Shown here: positions 13,506 through 21,134 of the stretch, piece by piece
Position numbering within the stretch: position 1 is the stretch's first letter
Layout: the number at the start of each line of letters is the position of its first letter
Assembly: GCA_037386985.1 (NCBI GenBank)
Contig: JARRLM010000001.1
Coordinates: forward strand, 2,495-31,376
Direction of reading: 5' to 3'
Length of the DNA: 28,882 bases
Source: Acidobacteriota bacterium
Lineage (GTDB): Bacteria > Acidobacteriota > UBA6911
Position numbers and translations under genes: made by a program
The notes under the pieces: generated by a model
The model's database searches: none
What the model saw: the letters and a program-made list of their open reading frames with translations, nothing else
Told to the model about the DNA's origin: nothing

Positions 13506-14280
13506 GCCCCGAGACCGAAATGGGGTTCAGGTTATTGCTCGTGCTGCCGAAATCTTGCGGGCACTTGAAGGCAGCGATGGTATGCGCCTTGGCCAGCTTG
13601 CCGAAAGGGTTGGCTTGCCCAAGTCTACAGTGCAGCGGATCATCACTGCTCTTGATTCGGAAAATTTCGTAGTTTCGGCATCTCCCGGCGGGCGCTTGCG
13701 GTTGGGCCCGGCTTTGGTCAGGATTGCCCACTCCATACGCTTCCCGATCGCGGAAACTGCCCGGCCATATCTTCGGAAGCTTTCCGAAAAAACGGGTGAA
13801 ACCGTGGACCTCGCGTTACTGGATGGGGAAAAAGCGGTCTTTGTGGATCAAATCCCGGGATCGCAGCGCCTCCGGACGGTGTCCGCCATCGGGATTTCAT
13901 TTCCACTGCATTGTACGGCTAACGGGAAAGCGATGCTCGCCGTGATGGGCGCCGGGGAATTGAACCGGCTCAAAAAAAGTATTCGCCTGGATGCTTTTAC
14001 CAAGAAATCCATTCGATCCTGGAAAAAGCTTGAAGAGGAACTTCTCAGGATTCGCGAAACTGGGATCGCATACGACCGGGAGGAACACTCGATAGGGATC
14101 TCGGCCGTCGGAGCTGCGATCGTCGGCTTTGAAGGAGAAATTACCGCAATCACGATTCCGACACCAACGGTGAGATTTGCCAAGAAGGAGCCTGAATTAG
14201 TGCAGGCGCTTCAGCTATGCCGAGAGGCAATCAACAGAATCCTAGGCGATCACCGCCGCAAGAGTAGGTCGGCTATTTGA
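13480..14280 (+). CDS. IclR family transcriptional regulator
   Basis: N-terminal HTH (LAERVGLPKSTVQRII), PLHCTANGKA, GISAVGAAI; ATG 13480 follows GAGGGAGAG (track start 13450). Confidence 0.92.
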   Translation: MDRLKTKPKPRDRNGVQVIARAAEILRALEGSDGMRLGQLAERVGLPKSTVQRIITALDSENFVVSASPGGRLRLGPALVRIAHSIRFPIAETARPYLRKLSEKTGETVDLALLDGEKAVFVDQIPGSQRLRTVSAIGISFPLHCTANGKAMLAVMGAGELNRLKKSIRLDAFTKKSIRSWKKLEEELLRIRETGIAYDREEHSIGISAVGAAIVGFEGEITAITIPTPTVRFAKKEPELVQALQLCREAINRILGDHRRKSRSAI

Positions 14281-14393
14281 TCTCCATTGTTCGGGTTGAT
14301 CGCGGGGATCACCGTCGACGCCTATGGTGTTAACGAGCGGGGCCGCAACTATCAGGGAAGGGAGAATAATTTGCCATGCGGAGGGGAAAAACC

Positions 14394-14519
14394 ATGATGA
14401 CTCTGCGGCTTTTTCCCCGAAAATTCGAATCCTTGCCGGCCGCCACAGCCTGGTATCTGGCAGATCTTGGCGAGTCGCGGGGCAAACAGGAATTGTTCAC
14501 TCGCCAATTAGTGTTCTAG
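14394..14519 (+). pseudogene. N-terminal fragment of a Fic/DOC family protein
   Basis: RBS GGAGGGG; MMTLRLFPRKFESLPAATAWYLADLGESRGKQELFTRQ then stop; matches the LGExRGKQELF N-terminus of Fic proteins; no HPFxxGNGR motif follows. Confidence 0.65.
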
Positions 14520-14611
14520 TCATGGTTGTGCTTATCCGAACCCAAAGGGATAGCCGCTATTCCATAGAACAGAAAATATCGCGCTTATCCTGCCTATCCG
14601 CCTGAAAGGGA

Positions 14612-14638
14612 ATAATGGCCCAGAGTCTTGCCGATCAT
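14612..14638 (-). pseudogene. N-terminal fragment of a Ser/Thr protein kinase (MIGKTLGHY), separated from its RBS by the RIT element
   Basis: Minus strand ATG ATC GGC AAG ACT CTG GGC CAT TAT; joining to 19152-19172 through TCATGG gives GGGAGA-5nt-MSMIGKTLGHY. Confidence 0.55.
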
Positions 14639-14640
14639 GG

Positions 14641-14691
14641 TTATGTTCTCAGTTGAATTATGTTCTTAGTTTTTCTTCTTATGCTTCAGTA
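14641..14691 (+). repeat. Left end: terminal inverted repeat plus two sub-terminal copies
   Basis: TTATGTTCTCAGTTG 14641-14655; TTATGTTCTTAGTT from 14658; TTATGCTTCAGT from 14679. Confidence 0.8.
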
Positions 14692-14839
14692 TTTTAATCT
14701 ACTTTCCTGATTTTAAATCATAGATAAATAGTTTTTTCCTTTTTATTATCCCTGCTTTTAGTTCTTCGCCCCCATCTCCTATGCTTCTACAGCTTTTGTC
14801 AATGGTCCATACCAGGTCTGCAATCAGGGGGAGATTTTT

Positions 14840-15268
14840 ATGCCGAAGCGTAGGAAGTGCCCTTTTTGTCGCCGGCTGTTCATCCCGGATCTGCGGGTCA
14901 AGGAGCGACAAAAAACTTGTGGTCGGAGAGAGTGTCGCGGCGAGCAAAAACGCCAATTGGATGCGCGTTGGCGGTTGCAAAATCCAGACTACTTTCGGAA
15001 TTTATATCCACAACAAAAGCAGGCTTACGGTACCCGGGCCGAATACCGAAAACGCTACCGCAAGGATCATCCCGATTATGTCCAGCGTAACGCCGCTTTC
15101 GTCAAGAAATACCGGAGGCGCCGCAACGAGAAAGCGGCAAAAGATGTAAGTTCCACAAGTTGTGATCTGCGTCTAACTGTTTGGAAACAAACGGGTAAGG
15201 TTAAAATTACCCATGTAAGTCACACAAGTCGCGATATTCTTGTAACTCTTTGCGAAAATGCATCTTAG
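14840..15268 (+). CDS. Hypothetical basic protein with N-terminal CxxC-x16-CxxxxC cluster (putative Zn-binding)
   Basis: RBS GGGGGAGA; CPFC...CGRREC; Arg/Lys-rich middle; two repeat units at the C-terminus. Confidence 0.75.
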   Translation: MPKRRKCPFCRRLFIPDLRVKERQKTCGRRECRGEQKRQLDARWRLQNPDYFRNLYPQQKQAYGTRAEYRKRYRKDHPDYVQRNAAFVKKYRRRRNEKAAKDVSSTSCDLRLTVWKQTGKVKITHVSHTSRDILVTLCENAS

Positions 15269-15298
15269 CGGGAAATTACCCATGTAAGTTCCACAAGT
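15144..15298 (+). repeat. Three direct repeats with an exact 69-bp period, core ATGTAAGT(TC/CA)CACAAGT
   Basis: Cores at 15144-15160, 15213-15229 and 15282-15298; copies 2 and 3 share the extra prefix AAATTACCC. Confidence 0.9.
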
Positions 15299-15338
15299 TC
15301 AGATAGCATTCCCGGCCGCCGCCAAATATTCTCGCTGC

Positions 15339-15686
15339 ATGTTGACGAAACGACCACAACCGCCGCGCCCGGATCGCATTCGATCTATCCGCGGATCTTT
15401 CAGTTGGATCGATCACCGATTTTTCCGCCAGGGATTCGACCAGGGATTAACCCGCCTGGAGAAGCTCCTCTACCTTGTGCTTATTGCCGTTTCCAATCGG
15501 GATGGTGTGAGCTTTTATTCGGACGAGCGACTGACGGAACTTCTCGAGATCCGCCACCCCCACGAACTAAGTGGGGCTCGCAATGAGCTGATTGATCGGG
15601 ATCTGATCGCATTCGAACGGGGAATCTATCAAGTTCTGGATCTGCCTCCTCAACCTCAAACACCCGGTTACCGGGAAAATGGATGA
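15339..15686 (+). CDS. Winged-helix-like DNA-binding protein (replication-initiator N-domain-like), coupled to the first recombinase
   Basis: SFSWIDHRFF, EKLLYLVLIAVSNRDGVSFYSDERLTELL, ARNELIDRDLI; its TGA overlaps the ritA ATG (ATGA 15683-15686). Confidence 0.78.
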   Translation: MLTKRPQPPRPDRIRSIRGSFSWIDHRFFRQGFDQGLTRLEKLLYLVLIAVSNRDGVSFYSDERLTELLEIRHPHELSGARNELIDRDLIAFERGIYQVLDLPPQPQTPGYRENG

Positions 15687-16939
15687 AAGGATCCGTTTTG
15701 AATCTTGCCGCCTGGATTGCCGATTACCAAACGTACCTTGAATCCACCGGTTATGCCGGCGCCACGATCCTATCTCGAATGAAGCACCTGAACTGCCTGC
15801 TCGCCTTTATCAATGCGCAGGACCTGAAAAGCTTGGAAGAGTTTCGCCCGGAACTGGCCATCGACTTTACCGATTACTGGGTGCGCCATCAACCTTATGC
15901 CAAGTCCGGTAAGGCTACCCTGAAAAAATCGAGATTCAAACCGCATCATCACAAAGGAATCCAGTATACCCTCCATTGCTTCTTCCGCTGGGCGCACTCC
16001 ACCGGACGTCTTCAACATAATGTTTTTCCCCTAATGCCTCCTGTGCGTGGCAACTACTTTTTCCAGGAGGTGGCCGGCTATATGCATTTCTGCCGACAGC
16101 ATAAGGGCTTGGCCCGAAACTCCCTGATAGAGATTGAACTCTTCGTGCGCCGCTTTGACGGATTCCTGCATTCCCGGCAGGTGAAACATTGGAATGAGAT
16201 GCGAATGCATCACATTGATCTGTTCATCCGGCAGCAGGCAGACAAGAACATTAAGCGTATTCGTCGCATTCAGAATGTGCTGCGCGGTCTGTTCCGGTAT
16301 CTGTTCAGCCTCAATCTGGTGAATCGTGACTGGGCCCTGGCTTTGCATGCTCCCCGCCAATACCACCTCGCTGATGTCCCCCGAACCATTCCCGCGGACC
16401 AGGTGATCCGATTGCTGCAGAGCATCGACCGCAATCGGCGAGGCGGCAAAAGGGATTTTGCCATGATACTGATGGCGGCCGGCCTTGGTGTGCGCGCCAA
16501 TGAGCTGGCCAATCTTTGCCTTGAAGATCTCGATTGGAAAAAAGGCGCAGTCCGTTTCAAACAGTCCAAGAATGGGAAACTGCTCTGGCTGCCGCTTTCG
16601 GGGCCTCTGATTGGAGCTCTGTCGTCTTACCTGCAGAACGAACGCCCCAACGACAGCGCCTCGAGAAACGTTTTTTTGCGGCTGGATGCTCCCTGGGAAC
16701 CGCTGACCCCGGCCGGAGTCGCCGGCGCCATACGGAAAAGAATGCGCGCGGCCCAGATCGCGGGCAGCGGTCATCAGCTGCGGCATAGTTTTGCCGGTGA
16801 ACTGCTGCGAGTTGGAGTCAATTTTTCAACCCTGCAGGAACTGCTGGGACATAGCCATATTACGTCCACTCAGATCTATACCAAAATCGATCTGAAACAG
16901 CTCCGTGAAGTGGCTGAAAGCGATGGTGAAAACTACTGA
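15683..16939 (+). CDS. ritA: Tyrosine recombinase, RIT first subunit
   Basis: RDFAMILMAAGLGVRANE; HQLRHSFA...LLGHSHITSTQIY (R, H-x-x-R, H, Y intact). Confidence 0.92.
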   Translation: MKGSVLNLAAWIADYQTYLESTGYAGATILSRMKHLNCLLAFINAQDLKSLEEFRPELAIDFTDYWVRHQPYAKSGKATLKKSRFKPHHHKGIQYTLHCFFRWAHSTGRLQHNVFPLMPPVRGNYFFQEVAGYMHFCRQHKGLARNSLIEIELFVRRFDGFLHSRQVKHWNEMRMHHIDLFIRQQADKNIKRIRRIQNVLRGLFRYLFSLNLVNRDWALALHAPRQYHLADVPRTIPADQVIRLLQSIDRNRRGGKRDFAMILMAAGLGVRANELANLCLEDLDWKKGAVRFKQSKNGKLLWLPLSGPLIGALSSYLQNERPNDSASRNVFLRLDAPWEPLTPAGVAGAIRKRMRAAQIAGSGHQLRHSFAGELLRVGVNFSTLQELLGHSHITSTQIYTKIDLKQLREVAESDGENY

Positions 16940-17975
16940 GATGAATAAGCTGCCCGAATTGAACTACGAGAGTTTCCTGGCCGCTGCAATGCGGGATTAC
17001 CTGGACTACCTCGACCACCTCGGGTTCAGCACCATGAACCATGCCTACAATCTCAAGAGTATTGATCGCTTTCTAATCGAAAACGACATCCGCCATACCG
17101 ACCAGCTTAATACCCGGCTAATGGTCGAGTTCGCAGACAAACACAAAGGGCGGATTAAAGCCAATACCCTGCGATTGCTGCGGCATACTTTTTATGGATT
17201 CTGCCGTTACATGATTCGTCTTGGCTGGATGGTGGAAAATCCAGTGGCCGGGTTTCCCGTGCTCAAATCCCAGTCTTATCTCCCGCATGTTTTTTCCCCG
17301 CAGGAGCTGAGGCTCTTCTTCGATTCCTTCAAAGCAAAGATACAACAGGAAGAGAATCCAACAGTGCGTTTCCGCGCTCTGTCCTACTACACCCTCTACC
17401 ACCTTCTGTATGCCTGCGGACTGCGTGTTTCTGAAGCCACTGCGCTCACAACATCCGTGTATTGTTCCCGTCAAGCGACTTTGTACATAGAACGTTCGAA
17501 GTTTCGCAAAGACCGTCTCATACCGATCAGTCGAAAAGTATGCTCCAATCTCGATTATCTTCTGACCGTGCGGCAGGGCCTGTTCGGGATTCCGCGCGAA
17601 GGATTCCTGTTTTTATTGGTGCCTCAATGCCGGCCGTACGCTCGAGATTGGCCCGGTCAATACTTTCGCAGAGTTCTCCAGCGCCTCGGGATTTACCATA
17701 ACAAGGAACATCATTGCGGCGTCTGCCATGGAACACCCCATCTGCACGAGCTTCGCAGAGCCTTCGCCGTCCATCGCCTCCTGAGATGGTATCGGGATAA
17801 GGCGGACGTCAACGCCAAGCTCCCTCTGTTGGCCACTTATATGGGGCACAGTTACTTCGGACACACGAAGACATACCTGACCTTGACCCGACAACTGCTT
17901 TCGGAAGCGGGAAGCCGGTTTGCCCAAAGCTTCGACCGCCTGGACTGGATGACGGATGATTCCAAGCTCGGATAA
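16923..17975 (+). CDS. ritB: Tyrosine recombinase, RIT second subunit (start uncertain: 16905, 16923 or 16941)
   Basis: LLYACGLRVSEA; HELRRAFAVHRLLRWY; LPLLATYMGH...TKTYL, typical of the middle RIT gene. Confidence 0.92.
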   Translation: MVKTTEMNKLPELNYESFLAAAMRDYLDYLDHLGFSTMNHAYNLKSIDRFLIENDIRHTDQLNTRLMVEFADKHKGRIKANTLRLLRHTFYGFCRYMIRLGWMVENPVAGFPVLKSQSYLPHVFSPQELRLFFDSFKAKIQQEENPTVRFRALSYYTLYHLLYACGLRVSEATALTTSVYCSRQATLYIERSKFRKDRLIPISRKVCSNLDYLLTVRQGLFGIPREGFLFLLVPQCRPYARDWPGQYFRRVLQRLGIYHNKEHHCGVCHGTPHLHELRRAFAVHRLLRWYRDKADVNAKLPLLATYMGHSYFGHTKTYLTLTRQLLSEAGSRFAQSFDRLDWMTDDSKLG

Positions 17976-18987
17976 ACTCTCGGTTCATCTCCATTACTTT
18001 TTTACGCGCTATCTGCCGCAACACCGGGAGGTCTCGTCCCATACGTTGTCGAGCTATAGGCAAACGTTCATTCACCTCGTTCGCTACTGGAACCGATCCT
18101 TCCCGGATTGTCCCGACCCTACAATAGATCGATTCCATGTTGGATTTTTGCTGGAGTTCCTTTCCTATCTGGAAAAAGAGCTGGGCAACGCGGCAGCGAC
18201 GCGCAACTCCCGCCTGGCTGCCCTGAAGTCCTTTTTTAAAATGGTCAGTCTGATCGAGCCCCGCTATCAAACGCAATGCCGTCAGATCCTGATGATTCCT
18301 GAGAAAAGAGTGCGGCGCTGGCCCTTTGAATACCTGGAGAAAAACGAAGTCGATTCGATTTTCGCCTGCGTCAATGTGCATACTCACGACGGCTACCGCG
18401 ATCTCTGCATTCTCCGCTCGCTGTACAACACCGGAGCGCGCGCTTCCGAGTTATGCGGCATCAACCTGCCCGACCTTGATCTTAAAAACAAACAGGTGTT
18501 GCTTTATGGCAAGGGAAAAAGGATCCGCACCGTTCCCCTGTGGGATTCCACCGCCGCATTCCTGAATAATTACCTGAAATCCGAACGGCGGGTTCCTCTG
18601 GAACCTTACGGCAACTTCCTATTCATCAATCAGCGCGGCGGCTCCCTGACTCGGTCAGGCCTTTATGCGCTTTGCAAAAAATACCTCGTTAAGGCTCGTG
18701 CCAGAGTGCCCACGCTGGCGCGTAAGCGAGTTCACCCGGTGCATGTCTGGCGCCGCACAACAGCTTCTCATCTGCTGCTTGCCGGCGTCGATCTGACTGT
18801 GATTCAGGAATGGCTGGGGCATGTCTCGATCGACACTACCTGTGGATATAAAGGCATCTCGATCGAAACCAAGCGTGAAGTGTTACAGAAGTTTTATTTG
18901 TTTGAGAAAGCCTGGCAGAAAACCAAAACGGAAGGGATTGATTGGAGTTTGCATCCGAATTTACTGTCGTTCCTGGAATCGCTTTAA
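17956..18987 (+). CDS. ritC: Tyrosine recombinase, RIT third subunit
   Basis: ATRNSRLAALKSFF; LYNTGARASE; HVWRRTTASHLL...WLGHVSIDTTCGY; overlaps ritB by 20 bp. Confidence 0.92.
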   Translation: MIPSSDKLSVHLHYFFTRYLPQHREVSSHTLSSYRQTFIHLVRYWNRSFPDCPDPTIDRFHVGFLLEFLSYLEKELGNAAATRNSRLAALKSFFKMVSLIEPRYQTQCRQILMIPEKRVRRWPFEYLEKNEVDSIFACVNVHTHDGYRDLCILRSLYNTGARASELCGINLPDLDLKNKQVLLYGKGKRIRTVPLWDSTAAFLNNYLKSERRVPLEPYGNFLFINQRGGSLTRSGLYALCKKYLVKARARVPTLARKRVHPVHVWRRTTASHLLLAGVDLTVIQEWLGHVSIDTTCGYKGISIETKREVLQKFYLFEKAWQKTKTEGIDWSLHPNLLSFLESL

Positions 18988-19073
18988 ACCATCTTCCAGG
19001 AGCCGGGATCATTGCGTCATCAGCCCGATAATTATGTTCTGTGTTTTTTTACCCGAATCGCTTACTGCTTATT

Positions 19074-19086
19074 TATCAATCACTTA
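19074..19086 (+). promoter_or_regulatory. IHF consensus site inside the RIT right end
   Basis: TATCAATCACTTA matches WATCAANNNNTTR exactly; a one-mismatch counterpart lies at 14714-14726 on the minus strand. Confidence 0.5.
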
Positions 19087-19136
19087 ACAAAAACAACCAA
19101 AATCCTGATAACTCATAGCGAATTAGGGAGATACGG

Positions 19137-19151
19137 CAACTCAGAACATAA
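19137..19151 (-). repeat. Right terminal inverted repeat of the RIT element
   Basis: CAACTCAGAACATAA (reverse complement TTATGTTCTGAGTTG); an oppositely oriented TTATGTTCTG lies at 19032-19041. Confidence 0.8.
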
Positions 19152-19421
19152 TCATGGACATAAGCATCTCCCGGCTAATCTGGCTGTCATGCTTTTTGGT
19201 GATTCGTGGCGGCAATTATCAGGGATGAGGGGAATGGGAAAAGGGAAATTGCGGGTAAGCCGCTGCAGCGAAATCAAGTCACTTTTCCGGAATGGATGTC
19301 AGGATCTAGAAACGAAAATAGCCTAACAGCATGGTCAAGTTCCCAACGTCTTGTTGATCGATCTTATTTTGTTTGTCCTTGAAGATCTATCTTTCTCGTG
19401 AAGTCTTCCCAAACCTGATCG

Positions 19422-21134
19422 CTACCCGATTCTCGGCATGAGCAGGTATGAGTCATACTTACCGCCTGCGTGAATGATATGATTCCCTCTATTCCGGGTT
19501 ACCGGACCGGGCAGATTCATACCGCCGGGACCACCCTGCCTGAAGCGGGCCATTACATTGTGCCCGGCTATCACAAGCTCAAGTTTTTCACCGCTGTGCC
19601 ATCTCATGCCGATGGGACGGATATGAATATCCAGCGGAACTATCTCGCCGGGTTTGATTAACTCCTCAACATCATGAGCATGATACGGAAACCAGGGAGT
19701 CGGCTGTGAAGTATCCAATCGACGATGTGATGCCCGTAACCGGCCGTCCGGACCGGTAAAGCCGTAGCCTCCCGGCACATGCTTTCCGGAAGAATCCAGC
19801 TTGTGCACCAACGCAAAGATATCGGCATCCTCTGCATCATCGGTCTCTATCCACAGACGCAGACTGACATAGCCGCTGAATTCTGTATCTTCCTTGAATT
19901 CGATTGCAAACCTGACATCGCTCTGGCCGTCATCCGATTGATAGCTGATAGTTGATTCATTTTTTGCAGGCTCGGCATTAAGAGCATTACTGGATGGATC
20001 CAGATACAATTTCTCATAGCGGGTTCGGCCTAACGGCCATTCTCCCTCTGAACGGTTAACCGTGTCGGTTCCTCCGGGATCCAGAACAGAGAGACGCACT
20101 TTCGGAGTTTCTTCCCAGCCGCTTTTCTCTCCTTTCAAATAGTGATCAAAAAATCGCCGAAGGTCATCTGCGTATTCGTAATAGTCCGGCCACTCGCCGG
20201 TGTTGTGGACCCGAAGCCATCTATCTTTAGAAGAAATCCTCCGGAACGCATCAATCGTTTGATGTCCATTCCAGCTTGCCACTATATAGGCGGGAACGTT
20301 TATCTTCTCAAGCTCCGGAGCTTTGTCTTTCCAGTAGCCGTTCATCAACGGATACTTTTCGGCCATCACTGTCATGTCTTCGACCCGGTTCATGCCTATT
20401 TGTGTTCCGGTATTCAGGTTGTTGAAAGCCGTATCACAAATACCGCCTCTGCGGACATCACAGCGATAGAGATCGATGTGTCCTTCCCATGGAGCGATGG
20501 CCGCCAGGTGCGGAGGATTTTGTGCTGCAGCAAACCACTGTATGATCCCCAGCCAGGAATTTCCTGACAAGGCCACTCTTCCGTTACACCATTCCTGAAC
20601 AGCTGTCCACTCGATGAAGTCGTAACAATCTTCAGCCGACTTGGTTCCCCACATGTAGATATCACCTTCGGAATAGAAGGAACCACGGGCATCCACGTTA
20701 ATCACGGCATATCCGTGGTTGCACCAGTAGGCCGGATCGGGTCCCTCGAATTTCTGGAGACCGGAAACTGCACCAGGATCAACTCCCGGAGGTGCCGGCT
20801 GGGGAAGCGTTTTGCCATAAGGACTCCAGGCTAAGATCGCAGGTACCACCTCAGTACCAACAGGAAGGAAGATATCCGCATATAGGGTTGCCCCATCCCG
20901 CATCGGAACGCCGACATCCCTGTGCCGGGTAATATCGCAAGGTAACGTAATACCGTTCTCGATGATCGTTCTTCCCTTTTTGAGAACAGAAACACCGGGT
21001 TTAAACTCTATTTCAGAAGCGGTCTGTAATTCGATGCCACGGTTTTTCGTATCAAGCGGCTGTGCCTTGCGAAACGCGACCTCTATATTCTCTGAACCAA
21101 ACTGAATTGTTTCGTATGAAATTCCATCCGTCAT
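19422..21134 (-). CDS. CocE/NonD family hydrolase (alpha/beta fold, PepX-like C-domain)
   Basis: VPMRDGATLYADIFLP, GYAVINVDARG, GNSWLG nucleophile elbow, GRLRASHR. Confidence 0.92.
   Translation of the reverse strand: MTDGISYETIQFGSENIEVAFRKAQPLDTKNRGIELQTASEIEFKPGVSVLKKGRTIIENGITLPCDITRHRDVGVPMRDGATLYADIFLPVGTEVVPAILAWSPYGKTLPQPAPPGVDPGAVSGLQKFEGPDPAYWCNHGYAVINVDARGSFYSEGDIYMWGTKSAEDCYDFIEWTAVQEWCNGRVALSGNSWLGIIQWFAAAQNPPHLAAIAPWEGHIDLYRCDVRRGGICDTAFNNLNTGTQIGMNRVEDMTVMAEKYPLMNGYWKDKAPELEKINVPAYIVASWNGHQTIDAFRRISSKDRWLRVHNTGEWPDYYEYADDLRRFFDHYLKGEKSGWEETPKVRLSVLDPGGTDTVNRSEGEWPLGRTRYEKLYLDPSSNALNAEPAKNESTISYQSDDGQSDVRFAIEFKEDTEFSGYVSLRLWIETDDAEDADIFALVHKLDSSGKHVPGGYGFTGPDGRLRASHRRLDTSQPTPWFPYHAHDVEELIKPGEIVPLDIHIRPIGMRWHSGEKLELVIAGHNVMARFRQGGPGGMNLPGPVTRNRGNHIIHAGGKYDSYLLMPRIG

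What the first reader, a model, noticed from the sequence alone, without database searches (positions are those of the whole stretch)
14635..19157. Five-gene RIT-type element: recombinase trio preceded by a Cys-cluster gene, a repeat array and a coupled wHTH gene
Seen: between matching terminal repeats lie ORF1 (142 aa), three 69-bp-period repeats, ORF2 (115 aa) whose stop overlaps the ritA start, and three recombinases with intact catalytic residues, all on one strand and lesion-free in a pseudogene-rich region. Known: described RIT elements are about 3.5 kb and consist essentially of the three recombinases between inverted repeats. Inference: an extended RIT subfamily in which accessory proteins control directionality, targeting or copy number of a circular intermediate. 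Best candidate in the window for an undescribed system.
Basis: partly seen in the sequence, partly recalled or inferred. Interest (0 to 1): 0.85.

Follow-up and report, generated by a model that had tools for sequence, protein, structure and literature searches.

The report
Five-gene recombinase-trio transposon with helper module
This is a real 4.5-kb jumping gene of the little-understood "recombinase-in-trio" kind, recently mobile, and it carries two extra DNA-binding-type genes plus three evenly spaced DNA sites, a package that also rides in unrelated transposons.

Summary
Five co-directional intact genes lie between matching ends: ORF1 (142 aa, Cys4), ORF2 (115 aa, winged helix, ATGA overlap with ritA) and ritA, ritB, ritC with full catalytic residues. 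Three repeats sit 69 bp apart.

Public marsh-metagenome contigs hold the exact empty site. They show a 4517-bp unit flanked by a 7-bp ATCATGG repeat, so all five genes move together.

The same five-gene layout, ends and repeat array recur in at least 9 loci from MAGs labelled as five phyla. Two copies are 99.7% identical in different flanks. Most copies sit in the HxLRH-coding stretch of other tyrosine-recombinase genes.

RitA, RitB and RitC are orthologous to classical RIT proteins, but classical RITs have three genes and lack ORF1/ORF2.

The ORF1 + phased array + ORF2 module is not RIT-specific. Homologous modules sit inside an active four-gene IS21 element (Caballeronia) and inside four-gene two-recombinase elements. 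ORF2 homologs also sit next to IS110 transposase genes.

The array is constrained at the DNA level (synonymous sites frozen, p=1e-6).

Function is untested. Most likely the module is a DNA-binding control or architecture unit at the head of the transposase operon.

First-reader notes of this scan had flagged four-gene IS21 elements and RIT homing on other DNA.

The parts
14634..14640 (.). Left copy of the 7-bp direct repeat ATCATGG (target / crossover sequence)
   Evidence: Empty-site joint 14633->19151 with 7 ambiguous letters in runs X1, X4 and X9; sequence read.
14641..14671 (+). Left end: two direct copies of the terminal motif TTATGTTCTnnGTT (14641-14654 and 14658-14671), candidate recombinase-binding sites
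   Evidence: The same pair, 17-18 bp apart, is at the left end of L006, L008, L010, L012, L015 and L016.
14721..14749 (+). Conserved leader with the only sigma-70-like promoter match (TAGATA-17-TATTAT) upstream of ORF1. It lies within the motif ATAGCTTTTCCCTTTTTCTTCT, which is shared by trio-type and duo-type elements.
   Evidence: consensus match only, 1 found against 2.0 expected; the leader motif lies 87-238 nt upstream of ORF1 in 10 of 11 RIT/duo-type loci.
14840..15268 (+). ORF1, 142 aa: N-terminal CxxC-x16-CxxxxC zinc-ribbon-like cluster, basic helices and a C-terminal beta hairpin encoded by the repeat array. No Pfam or NCBIfam family.
   Evidence: 129 homologs, mostly 142 aa. Alignment A1. 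Model pLDDT 82 with no structural relative.
15144..15304 (+). Array of three direct repeats (15144-15166, 15213-15235, 15282-15304), start-to-start spacing 69 bp, core GTAAGTnnCACAAGnnnnGAT. Copies 1 and 2 lie inside the ORF1 coding region and copy 3 lies after its stop.
   Evidence: The core is invariant in 15 loci, with spacing 69/69, 69/68 or 69/79-80. Synonymous sites are frozen. No conserved RNA structure.
15339..15686 (+). ORF2, 115 aa winged-helix protein whose stop overlaps the ritA start. It is the most conserved protein of the element.
   Evidence: 926 homologs. 1073 clusters at 50% identity. Model pLDDT 88.5. Nearest solved folds are RepA_N initiator N-domains, Z 8.1-8.6, tied with generic wHTH regulators. 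Weak HTH_36 match.
15683..16939 (+). ritA, 418 aa tyrosine recombinase with R, K, HQLR, H and Y intact
   Evidence: Best reciprocal match is to the RitA of classical RITs.
16905..17975 (+). ritB, 356 aa from the GTG at 16905 (the ATG at 16923 is the likelier start), tyrosine recombinase with R, K, HELR, H and Y intact
   Evidence: Matches RitB of classical RITs. 430 plasmid records hold RitB-like genes.
17956..18987 (+). ritC, 343 aa tyrosine recombinase with R, K, HVWR, H and Y intact
   Evidence: Matches RitC of classical RITs.
19032..19151 (.). Right end: an inner copy of the terminal motif in direct orientation (19032-19045), then 92 nt, then the terminal inverted copy (19138-19151)
   Evidence: The same arrangement is found in L005, L006, L008, L012 and L016.
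19151..19157 (.). Right copy of the 7-bp direct repeat ATCATGG

Best explanation
SHOWN. Window 14641-19157 is one mobile unit of 4517 bp. It is a RIT (recombinase-in-trio) transposon whose left arm carries an extra module: a conserved leader, ORF1 (zinc-ribbon-like, basic), three DNA sites 69 bp apart, and ORF2 (winged helix) translationally coupled to ritA-ritB-ritC. Each end carries the 14-nt motif TTATGTTCTGAGTT, two direct copies on the left and one direct plus one inverted on the right.

INFERRED, movement. The three recombinases join the ends into a circle whose junction (AACTCAGAACATAA, then TCATGG, then TTATGTTCTCAGTT) is a lox/dif-like core site with a 6-7-nt overlap. They then recombine it with sites of the form GAY-CNNNG-RCAY, which is the coding sequence of the H-x-L-R-H active-site motif of other tyrosine recombinases. 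The 5-7 flanking bases are duplicated, sometimes imperfectly, as expected from strand exchange across a non-identical overlap.

INFERRED, the module. ORF2 and/or ORF1 bind the three phased sites and build a higher-order complex at the head of the operon that sets how much recombinase is made (autoregulation, or insulation from outside transcription). Because this job does not depend on recombination chemistry, the same module has been captured by IS21 elements, by two-recombinase elements and, less certainly, by IS110-type elements (adjacency only).

CONFIDENCE BY PART. About 0.9 that this is a mobile five-gene RIT variant. About 0.85 that the module is portable. About 0.4 that its job is expression control rather than a direct role in synapsis.
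For: The unit and its mobility.
- An empty-site joint skips exactly 4517 bp in three runs, including a 1793-bp contig from a run not flagged as a possible source of this assembly.
- A diverged second copy with the same five genes fills contig C484 of the same genome.
- L015 and L016 are 99.7% identical over 4635 bp, the match starting at the crossover bases, and lie in different flanks.

Synteny and ends. The five-gene order and the four terminal motifs recur in loci from MAGs labelled as five phyla.

RIT identity. A/B/C orthology to the Sphingobium and Paraburkholderia trios; catalytic residues intact.

Target. In 6 of 9 loci at least one sequenced flank reads as a tyrosine-recombinase gene at its HxLR|H motif, with 5-nt CTNCG-type sequences on both sides where both are seen.

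The array is a DNA element.
- The core is invariant in 15 loci.
- Copy 3 lies outside the ORF, and its spacing varies by 1 or by 10-11 bp.
- 11 of 14 invariant-residue codons in the array use a single codon, against 1 of 27 elsewhere in ORF1, p=1.3e-6.
- There is no RNA covariation.

Portability.
- A Caballeronia IS21-family element has at least 5 copies at 100% identity. It carries an ORF1-like gene (35% identity), three repeats at exactly 69/69 bp and an ORF2-like gene (40% identity) overlapping istA.
- 7 of 12 sampled distant ORF2 homologs precede IstA or IstA/IstB.
- A zinc-ribbon ORF lies upstream in 8 of the 9 loci with enough upstream sequence, counting the window.
- Phased triplets or pairs 60-71 bp apart lie upstream of ORF2 homologs.
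- The last site lies about 50-80 nt before the ORF2 start.
- ORF2's stop overlaps the next gene in RIT, IS21 and other recombinase contexts.
Against: - No binding, expression or transposition data exist. RIT transposition has never been reproduced in the laboratory (PMC10214605).
- No circular junction was seen; only contigs were available.
- The only promoter-like match is upstream of ORF1, none lies at the array, and it is no better than chance.
- Which protein reads the array is open. In a closed genome of the same genus, ORF2 is 80% identical but ORF1 is of another type and the GTAAGT array is absent.
- The conserved 69-bp phasing across 40%-identical relatives suggests a structural complex, which fits a direct role in synapsis as well as it fits regulation.
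- The ORF1-ORF2 complex prediction gave no verdict.
- The target in this window is not a recognisable recombinase gene.
Confidence: 0.6

Rival explanations
1. The module is a recombination cofactor rather than a regulator. ORF2/ORF1 bound to the three phased sites bend or wrap the left arm, like lambda arm sites with Xis/IHF, the Mu enhancer, or TnpC/Srap/GinD of Tn554, SE and GInt. This would assemble the synaptic complex, set directionality or choose targets.
For: - Spacing of 69 bp is kept exactly in RIT-type and IS21-type modules. Where it differs, it does so by about one helical turn (79-80).
- ORF2 is more conserved than the recombinases.
- Related multi-recombinase transposons need a small extra protein for recombination (PMC10214605).
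- RIT recombinases are 'simple' tyrosine recombinases without arm-binding domains (PMC8138268), so a separate architectural protein is plausible.
Against: - The same module serves DDE (IS21) and tyrosine-recombinase enzymes, which assemble quite different synaptic complexes.
- Classical RITs move without it: they are multi-copy three-gene elements (PMC3414803).
- A duo-type relative with 80%-identical ORF2 lacks the array.
Confidence: 0.25
2. The module is a mini-replicon or maintenance unit for the excised circle. The three repeats would act as iterons and ORF2 as a RepA_N-like initiator domain that recruits host replication proteins or pairs circles.
For: - ORF2's nearest solved folds are the iteron-binding N-domains of staphylococcal RepA_N initiators: 4pql Z 8.6, 5kbj Z 8.3, 24-25% identity over 82-85 residues.
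- Weak HTH_36 match, and WHD_DnaB-like neighbours in the Atlas.
- By established knowledge, IS110 elements use an excised circle and IS21 a joined-ends junction, and a circle is inferred for RIT. All three therefore use abutted-end forms.
Against: - ORF2 has only about 115 residues and no second domain.
- The Z scores tie with ordinary wHTH regulators.
- Iterons are normally contiguous 17-22-bp units beside an AT-rich region, not sites 69 bp apart inside a coding region.
- No helicase loader or AT-rich unwinding element was seen.
Confidence: 0.08
3. ORF1 and ORF2 are passenger genes (for example an addiction or anti-defence pair) that benefit the element or host but play no part in transposition or its control.
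For: No family annotation and no known fold for ORF1. Transposons often carry passengers.
Against: - The pair always sits between the left end and the transposase genes.
- ORF2 is translationally coupled to those genes in three element classes.
- A cis-acting site array is conserved along with the pair.
Confidence: 0.05
4. Chance nesting: a three-gene RIT merely landed next to two unrelated genes, and the outer repeats are coincidental.
For: None was found.
Against: - The empty site removes all five genes at once.
- Near-identical five-gene copies begin and end at the outer motifs.
- No repeat pair brackets 15683-18987 alone.
- The synteny recurs in at least 9 loci.
Confidence: 0.02

Closest known systems
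RIT (recombinase in trio) elements: ritA-ritB-ritC of Cupriavidus metallidurans CH34, Sphingobium herbicidovorans MH and others (Van Houdt 2009/2012, PMC3414803; Ricker 2013; PMC5737581)
   Same: Three overlapping co-directional tyrosine recombinase genes, orthologous A-B-C, all catalytically complete, with terminal inverted repeats and multiple copies per genome.
   Different: Published RITs are described as three genes plus terminal repeats (PMC10214605 Table 1), about 3.4 kb. The two annotated classical RITs inspected have nothing like ORF1/ORF2. The classical RIT nested in L006 is likewise three genes in about 3.4 kb and gave no ORF1 or ORF2 match. This element adds a roughly 1.0-kb left arm with two genes and a phased site array. 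I could not read Ricker 2013, so a mention of extra ORFs there cannot be excluded.
Small accessory proteins of multi-recombinase transposons: TnpC (Tn554), Srap (SE), GinD (GInt) (PMC10214605, PMC5385486)
   Same: A small non-catalytic protein is encoded in the same operon as several tyrosine recombinases. In SE, GInt and Tn554 it is required for, or stimulates, recombination.
   Different: Those genes lie downstream of the recombinases, come singly and have no known site array. GInt and SE have one recombinase-like protein without catalytic residues, whereas here all three are complete. Sequence relatedness to ORF1/ORF2 was not tested.
IS21 family insertion sequences (IstA transposase + IstB AAA+ helper; PMC10122671, PMC11208146)
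   Same: A subset of IS21 elements carries homologs of ORF1 and ORF2 and a three-site array at 69-bp spacing, in the same position ahead of the transposase.
   Different: The transposase chemistry (DDE) and the ends are unrelated. Canonical IS21 is described with istA and istB only. RefSeq calls the extra pair hypothetical, and no Pfam or NCBIfam model covers it.
Phage Mu early region (repressor/Ner operators O1-O3 that double as the transposition enhancer, upstream of the A and B genes). From my own knowledge, not tested here.
   Same: Small DNA-binding proteins and a set of three sites lie between the left end and the transposase operon, in an element whose transposase and ATPase are relatives of IstA/IstB. 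Regulation and transpososome assembly share the same sites.
   Different: No sequence or fold relation was shown. This is a working analogy only.
RepA_N plasmid initiators bound to iterons (PDB 4pql, 4pt7, 5kbj)
   Same: Nearest solved fold for ORF2; a winged helix that reads direct repeats.
   Different: ORF2 is the N-domain only. The score is not above that of generic wHTH regulators. The repeat spacing and context differ.

Membership tests
RIT elements | Three adjacent, co-directional tyrosine recombinase genes with short overlaps | tested here: met
   ritA/ritB overlap by 35 nt (17 nt from the ATG at 16923) and ritB/ritC by 20 nt. All three hit Phage_integrase.
RIT elements | The three proteins belong to the distinct RitA, RitB and RitC subfamilies, in that order | tested here: met
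   In the blastp bit-score matrix, each window protein matches its own subfamily in S. herbicidovorans, P. sabiae and the RIT nested in L006 better than any other recombinase in the matrix. win_A scores 131, 96 and 138 against the three RitA proteins and at most 70 against anything else. win_B scores 96 and 94 against the Sphingobium and Paraburkholderia RitB, a weaker 36 against the nested RitB, and at most 34 against anything else. win_C scores 192, 162 and 172 against RitC and at most 68 against anything else.
RIT elements | All three recombinases keep the catalytic R...HxxR...Y set | tested here: met
   Alignments to XerD and XerC-like structures.
RIT elements | RitA has two core-binding domains and RitC an extra C-terminal helix (PMC8138268) | tested here: inconclusive
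   RitA has two separate SAM-like matches, at 10-40 (weak) and 132-207. RitC continues about 40 residues past the catalytic Tyr. Neither protein was modelled.
RIT elements | Terminal inverted repeats bound the unit | tested here: met
   A 14-nt motif at 14641 and, inverted, at 19138, conserved across the family. The borders are fixed by the empty site.
RIT elements | The element consists essentially of the three recombinase genes (about 3.5 kb) | tested here: not met
   Five genes and 4517 bp, with ORF1, the array and ORF2 inside the borders. It is therefore filed as a variant, not a typical member.
GInt / SE elements | One of the recombinase-like proteins lacks the catalytic motif, a small fourth gene lies downstream, and large cargo is carried | tested here: not met
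   All three are catalytic. The extra genes lie upstream. There is no cargo.
IS21 family | IstA DDE transposase and IstB AAA+ helper | tested here: not met
   The window element has no rve or IstB domain. Only the ORF1/ORF2 module is shared.
Iteron-type replicon (RepA_N) | Two-domain initiator plus contiguous iterons and an origin | tested here: not met
   ORF2 is a single winged helix of 115 aa. The sites lie 69 bp apart inside a coding region. Replication itself is not testable here.

The most novel reading that the evidence does not exclude
ORF1 + three phased sites + ORF2 is a self-contained 'front-end' module, apparently undescribed, that unrelated transposons have captured repeatedly: RIT trios, two-recombinase elements, IS21 (DDE) and, less certainly, IS110 (DEDD, adjacency only). 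It would build a wrapped three-site nucleoprotein complex at the left arm that licenses or limits transposition whatever the chemistry. That would make it a common control principle for elements that pass through joined-end or circular forms, and a handle for reconstituting RIT transposition for the first time.
Probability: 0.45. Interest if true: 0.8.

Novelty: new variant of a known kind. Interest (0 to 1): 0.7.

Why it matters
RIT elements are widespread, but their mechanism is unknown and they have never been made to move in the laboratory (PMC10214605). This element offers:
- exact borders, a natural empty site and a predicted lox-like circle junction;
- a defined target, the active-site-coding stretch of other recombinase genes;
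- near-identical active copies, which are the ingredients for a reconstitution experiment.

The accessory module belongs to a large unannotated protein family: more than 1000 clusters at 50% identity, with no Pfam or NCBIfam model. It travels with at least three mechanistically different transposon types. Understanding it could reveal a general way in which transposons set their own activity, and it would improve IS and transposon annotation, because four-gene IS21 and five-gene RIT units are currently called 'hypothetical proteins'.

Tried and rejected
- Complex prediction of ORF1 with ORF2: no verdict (score 0.00). This is no evidence either way.
- Fold searches for ORF1 (Foldseek PDB; VIA wide, best Z 3.4): no relative found.
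- Profile search of the ORF2 alignment against PDB sequences: nothing.
- NCBIfam and Pfam for ORF1, ORF2 and their IS21-borne homologs: nothing beyond a weak HTH_36 match.
- The Atlas gave only 'hypothetical' clusters.
- RNA reading of the array: no conserved structure, 0 covarying pairs, single-sequence z = -1.7. Rejected.
- Promoter scan: one consensus match, no better than chance.
- Circle junction: not testable. All 23 listed runs are kept as contigs, and no 'goes back' joint between the ends was seen.
- The small ORF restored by excision is not conserved in 30 relatives, so the window's target is not a recognisable gene.
- Ricker 2013 is not in the library. Literature searches for IS21 elements with extra ORFs found no description.
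It was rebuilt without that row.
- Chance nesting: rejected (see rival explanations).

Full report
WHAT IS THERE

On the + strand lie five intact genes:
- ORF1, 14840-15268, 142 aa
- ORF2, 15339-15686, 115 aa
- ritA, 15683-16939, 418 aa
- ritB, 16905-17975, 356 aa from a GTG. The ATG at 16923 is more likely the start, by comparison with the second copy.
- ritC, 17956-18987, 343 aa

The three large proteins are tyrosine recombinases (Pfam Phage_integrase, E 4e-28, 7e-14 and 1e-30). Aligned to XerD/XerC-like structures, each keeps R, K, HxxR, H and Y. The ORF2 stop overlaps the ritA start (ATGA).

Three 23-nt direct repeats start at 15144, 15213 and 15282. Their core GTAAGTnnCACAAG occurs 3 times in the window against 0.05 expected.

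The terminal motif TTATGTTCTnnGTT occurs 4 times against 0.07 expected. Two direct copies are on the left (14641, 14658). One direct copy (19032) and one inverted copy (19138) are on the right.

BORDERS AND MOBILITY

I laid contigs of four public marsh and sediment metagenome runs on 13600-20200. Three runs gave a joint from 14633 to 19151 that skips 4517 bp, with 7 letters fitting either side. One of these is a 1793-bp contig in a run not flagged as a possible source of this assembly.

So the population holds an allele without the element. The element is 4517 bp, and a 7-bp ATCATGG flanks it on both sides (14634-14640 and 19151-19157). All five genes leave together.

In the same genome a diverged copy (73-75% nucleotide identity) with the same five genes fills contig C484. 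A 135-bp right-end remnant sits on C481.

THE FAMILY

ORF1 has 129 homologs, nearly all 142 aa. A scan of one genome per species found 31 loci.

At least 9 loci hold ORF1-ORF2-ritA-ritB-ritC in this order. They come from MAGs labelled Acidobacteriota, Planctomycetota (Sedimentisphaerales and Gemmataceae) and Spirochaetota. Loci from MAGs labelled Syntrophobacteraceae and Acidimicrobiia hold the ORF1-ORF2 pair.

The ends are conserved: flank | TTATGTTCTGAGTT-n3/4-TTATGTTCTGAGTT ... inner copy - about 92 nt - AACTCAGAACATAA | flank.

L016 and L015 are 99.7% identical over 4635 bp, starting at the crossover bases, with different flanks. Their MAGs are labelled as different phyla, which means either recent transfer or a binning error.

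Within the window's genus, only 2 of 19 genomes searched hold an ORF2 homolog. The distribution is patchy.

IS IT A RIT?

Yes for the recombinases. Each is the best match of the RitA, RitB or RitC of the published Sphingobium herbicidovorans ritABC, of a Paraburkholderia trio, and of a classical trio nested in L006.

The two annotated classical RITs inspected are three genes with nothing like ORF1/ORF2 upstream. The trio nested in L006 is also three genes in about 3.4 kb and gave no ORF1 or ORF2 match. This agrees with the published description of RITs as three recombinase genes plus terminal repeats (PMC10214605 Table 1; PMC3414803). The element is therefore a RIT variant with an added left arm.

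TARGET AND LIKELY CHEMISTRY (inferred)

In 6 of 9 family loci, at least one sequenced flank reads as another tyrosine recombinase gene at its H-x-L-R|H motif. Examples are ...HPHTLR | element | LRHATAMHLLQSGVDI... in L016 and | LRHSWASHMLAGGADL... at the second copy in this genome.

Five bases of the type CTNCG stand on both sides but are not always identical: CTGCG/CTTCG in L016 and CCGCG/CTGCG in L012. In this window they are identical, (A)TCATGG on both sides.

Joined ends would read AACTCAGAACATAA-TCATGG-TTATGTTCTCAGTT. That is two 14-nt inverted arms around a 6-nt spacer, the geometry of lox/dif-type core sites.

Imperfect flank duplications are what strand exchange across a non-identical overlap leaves behind. 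This is how the coupling sequences of Tn916 and the 6-bp footprints of Tn554/SE arise (PMC10214605).

In L006 a classical RIT sits in this family's own ritC, at the codons for HVWR. Earlier reports of this scan described RIT homing into recombinase genes on other DNA. My junctions agree with them.

THE ACCESSORY MODULE

ORF1 has a CxxC-x16-CxxxxC cluster, very basic helices and a short beta hairpin (model pLDDT 82). It has no Pfam or NCBIfam family and no structural relative.

ORF2 is a winged helix (pLDDT 88.5). Its nearest solved folds are the iteron-binding N-domains of RepA_N initiators: Z 8.1-8.6, 24-25% identity over 82-85 residues. Generic wHTH regulators score the same. Its family is large and unannotated: 926 close homologs and 1073 clusters at 50% identity.

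The repeat array is a DNA element, not a by-product of protein repeats:
- In 15 loci the core is invariant, although ORF1 identity falls to 53%.
- Copy 3 lies after the stop codon.
- Its distance from copy 2 is 69, 68 or 79-80 bp, so it shifts frame by 1 bp or by about one helical turn.
- Among columns with an invariant residue, 11 of 14 in the array use a single codon, against 1 of 27 in the rest of ORF1 (Fisher p=1.3e-6).
- There is no conserved RNA structure.

THE MODULE IS PORTABLE

IS21 elements.
- In Caballeronia sp. SBC1/SBC2, a 3427-bp IS21-family element is present in at least 5 copies at 100% identity.
- It holds an ORF1 homolog (35% over the zinc-ribbon half), three GCGTTACAAGA repeats spaced exactly 69 and 69 bp, and an ORF2 homolog (40%) whose end overlaps istA, followed by istB.

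What follows 12 distant ORF2 homologs:
- IstA or IstA/IstB: 7
- a tyrosine recombinase: 2
- an IS110 transposase: 1
- a ParB-HTH-like gene: 1
- unclear: 1

Other features that travel with ORF2.
- In 8 of the 9 loci with enough upstream DNA (counting the window), a zinc-ribbon ORF of the same pattern precedes ORF2.
- Pairs or triplets of a locus-specific motif, 60-71 bp apart, recur upstream of ORF2.

Two-recombinase ("duo") elements.
- A four-gene element, ORF1-ORF2 plus two tyrosine recombinases (3392 bp), is present three times at 99.85% in one Acidobacteriota MAG.
- A 3.48-kb relative is present four times in a closed genome of the window's own genus.
- Similarity between trio-type and duo-type elements covers only the leader-ORF1-array-ORF2 block. 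That is the signature of module exchange.

WHAT THE MODULE PROBABLY DOES

No experiment exists, so this is inference.

A role that suits DDE and tyrosine enzymes alike, always sits between the left end and the transposase genes, is translationally coupled to them, and places its last site 50-80 nt before ORF2 is most simply control of transposase expression. That could be autoregulation or insulation from read-through. I put this at about 0.4.

The strict 69-bp phasing is kept at 40% protein identity and changes only by about a helical turn. This points to a defined higher-order complex and fits a direct architectural role in synapsis nearly as well (0.25).

A replication or maintenance role for a circle is suggested only by the RepA_N-like fold (0.08). 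A pure passenger role is unlikely (0.05).

Which protein reads the array is open. In the same-genus duo-type element, ORF2 is 80% identical, but ORF1 is of another zinc-ribbon type and the GTAAGT array is missing. The array therefore travels with the ORF1 type.

NOVELTY

I found no description of RITs with these genes, or of IS21 elements with this pair, in the searchable literature. RefSeq calls them hypothetical.

I could not read Ricker 2013. First-reader notes of this scan had flagged four-gene IS21 elements in two other genomes, and a note on this window had guessed the portable module. I tested the idea independently here.

VERDICT

This is a new variant of a known kind (RIT). It carries an accessory module that is itself apparently undescribed and shared across transposon classes.

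Noticed in passing
L020:6820-10211 (also L021, L024): A four-gene 'duo' element (ORF1, ORF2 and two tyrosine recombinases of 348 and 379 aa; 3392 bp) occurs three times at 99.85% in one Acidobacteriota MAG. Its ends carry TTTAACCGGCCAAT / ATTGGCCAGTTAA. It sits in the 5' end of IS110-family transposase genes: the flanks read MM | IIGV... and ...LIGV | DYHPS. It therefore appears to home into another transposase's first catalytic motif.
   Followed up: partly
L062, L063, L064 (G012:C1 near 2.93 Mb, 5.03 Mb and 5.62 Mb): A closed genome of the window's genus has four copies (two pairs, 99.8% within a pair and 93% between pairs) of a 3.48-kb duo-type element. Its ORF2 is 80% identical to the window's. 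Its zinc-ribbon ORF1 is of another type, a second zinc-ribbon reading frame carries an in-frame TGA where a Cys is expected, and the GTAAGT array is absent.
   Followed up: partly
L039:5271-8697 (NZ_CP049160.1 175127-178553): An active four-gene IS21-family element in Caballeronia sp. SBC1/SBC2, with at least 5 identical copies on several replicons. It consists of a zinc-ribbon ORF, three repeats spaced 69 bp, a winged-helix ORF overlapping istA, and istB. The extra genes are annotated as hypothetical.
   Followed up: yes
L006:13985-17412: A classical three-gene RIT (412, 301 and 332 aa, opposite strand) is inserted in the ritC of a five-gene element, at the codons of its HVWR active-site motif. 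Here one RIT has disrupted another.
   Followed up: partly
L013:7001-9364 and L044:137-1922: ORF1-ORF2 (L013), or an ORF2 homolog alone (L044), is followed within 185-270 nt by a full IS110-family transposase gene, with no tyrosine recombinase between. Whether these form a mobile unit was not checked.
   Followed up: no
L005:2258-3238 (own genome, contig C484): The ritB of the second copy in this genome is about 30 aa shorter (326 against 356 aa). It lacks about 21 residues around the conserved Lys hairpin (ERSKFRKDRLIPIS... in the window copy), so that copy may be inactive. Its right flank is another recombinase gene cut at LRHSWASHML.
   Followed up: partly
window 14616-14640 joined to 19158-19326: Removing the element in silico restores a 64-aa ORF with an RBS (MAQSLADHGHKHLP...). 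It is not conserved in 30 related genomes. The closest relative, L008, sits in a similar 16-nt + 10-nt sequence, so the site seems to be recognised as DNA rather than as a gene.
   Followed up: partly
window 14721-14750, and upstream of ORF1 in L005, L008, L012, L016, L017, L018, L020 and L063: A leader motif ATAGC(T/C)TTTCCCTTTTnCTTCT is conserved 87-238 nt upstream of ORF1 in both trio-type and duo-type elements, including the one whose ORF1 type differs. It was not detected in the IS21-type modules.
   Followed up: partly
window 15204-15348: Contigs of runs X1 and X4 show internal joints at the repeat array (15235->15348, and 15251->15204 with 21-27 foreign letters). These are probably variants of related elements or rearrangements between array copies.
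   Followed up: no
window 14338-14358 and 19205-19225: A 21-nt direct repeat (86% identity) lies outside the element, 283 nt to the left of it and 48 nt to the right. It remains unexplained.
   Followed up: no
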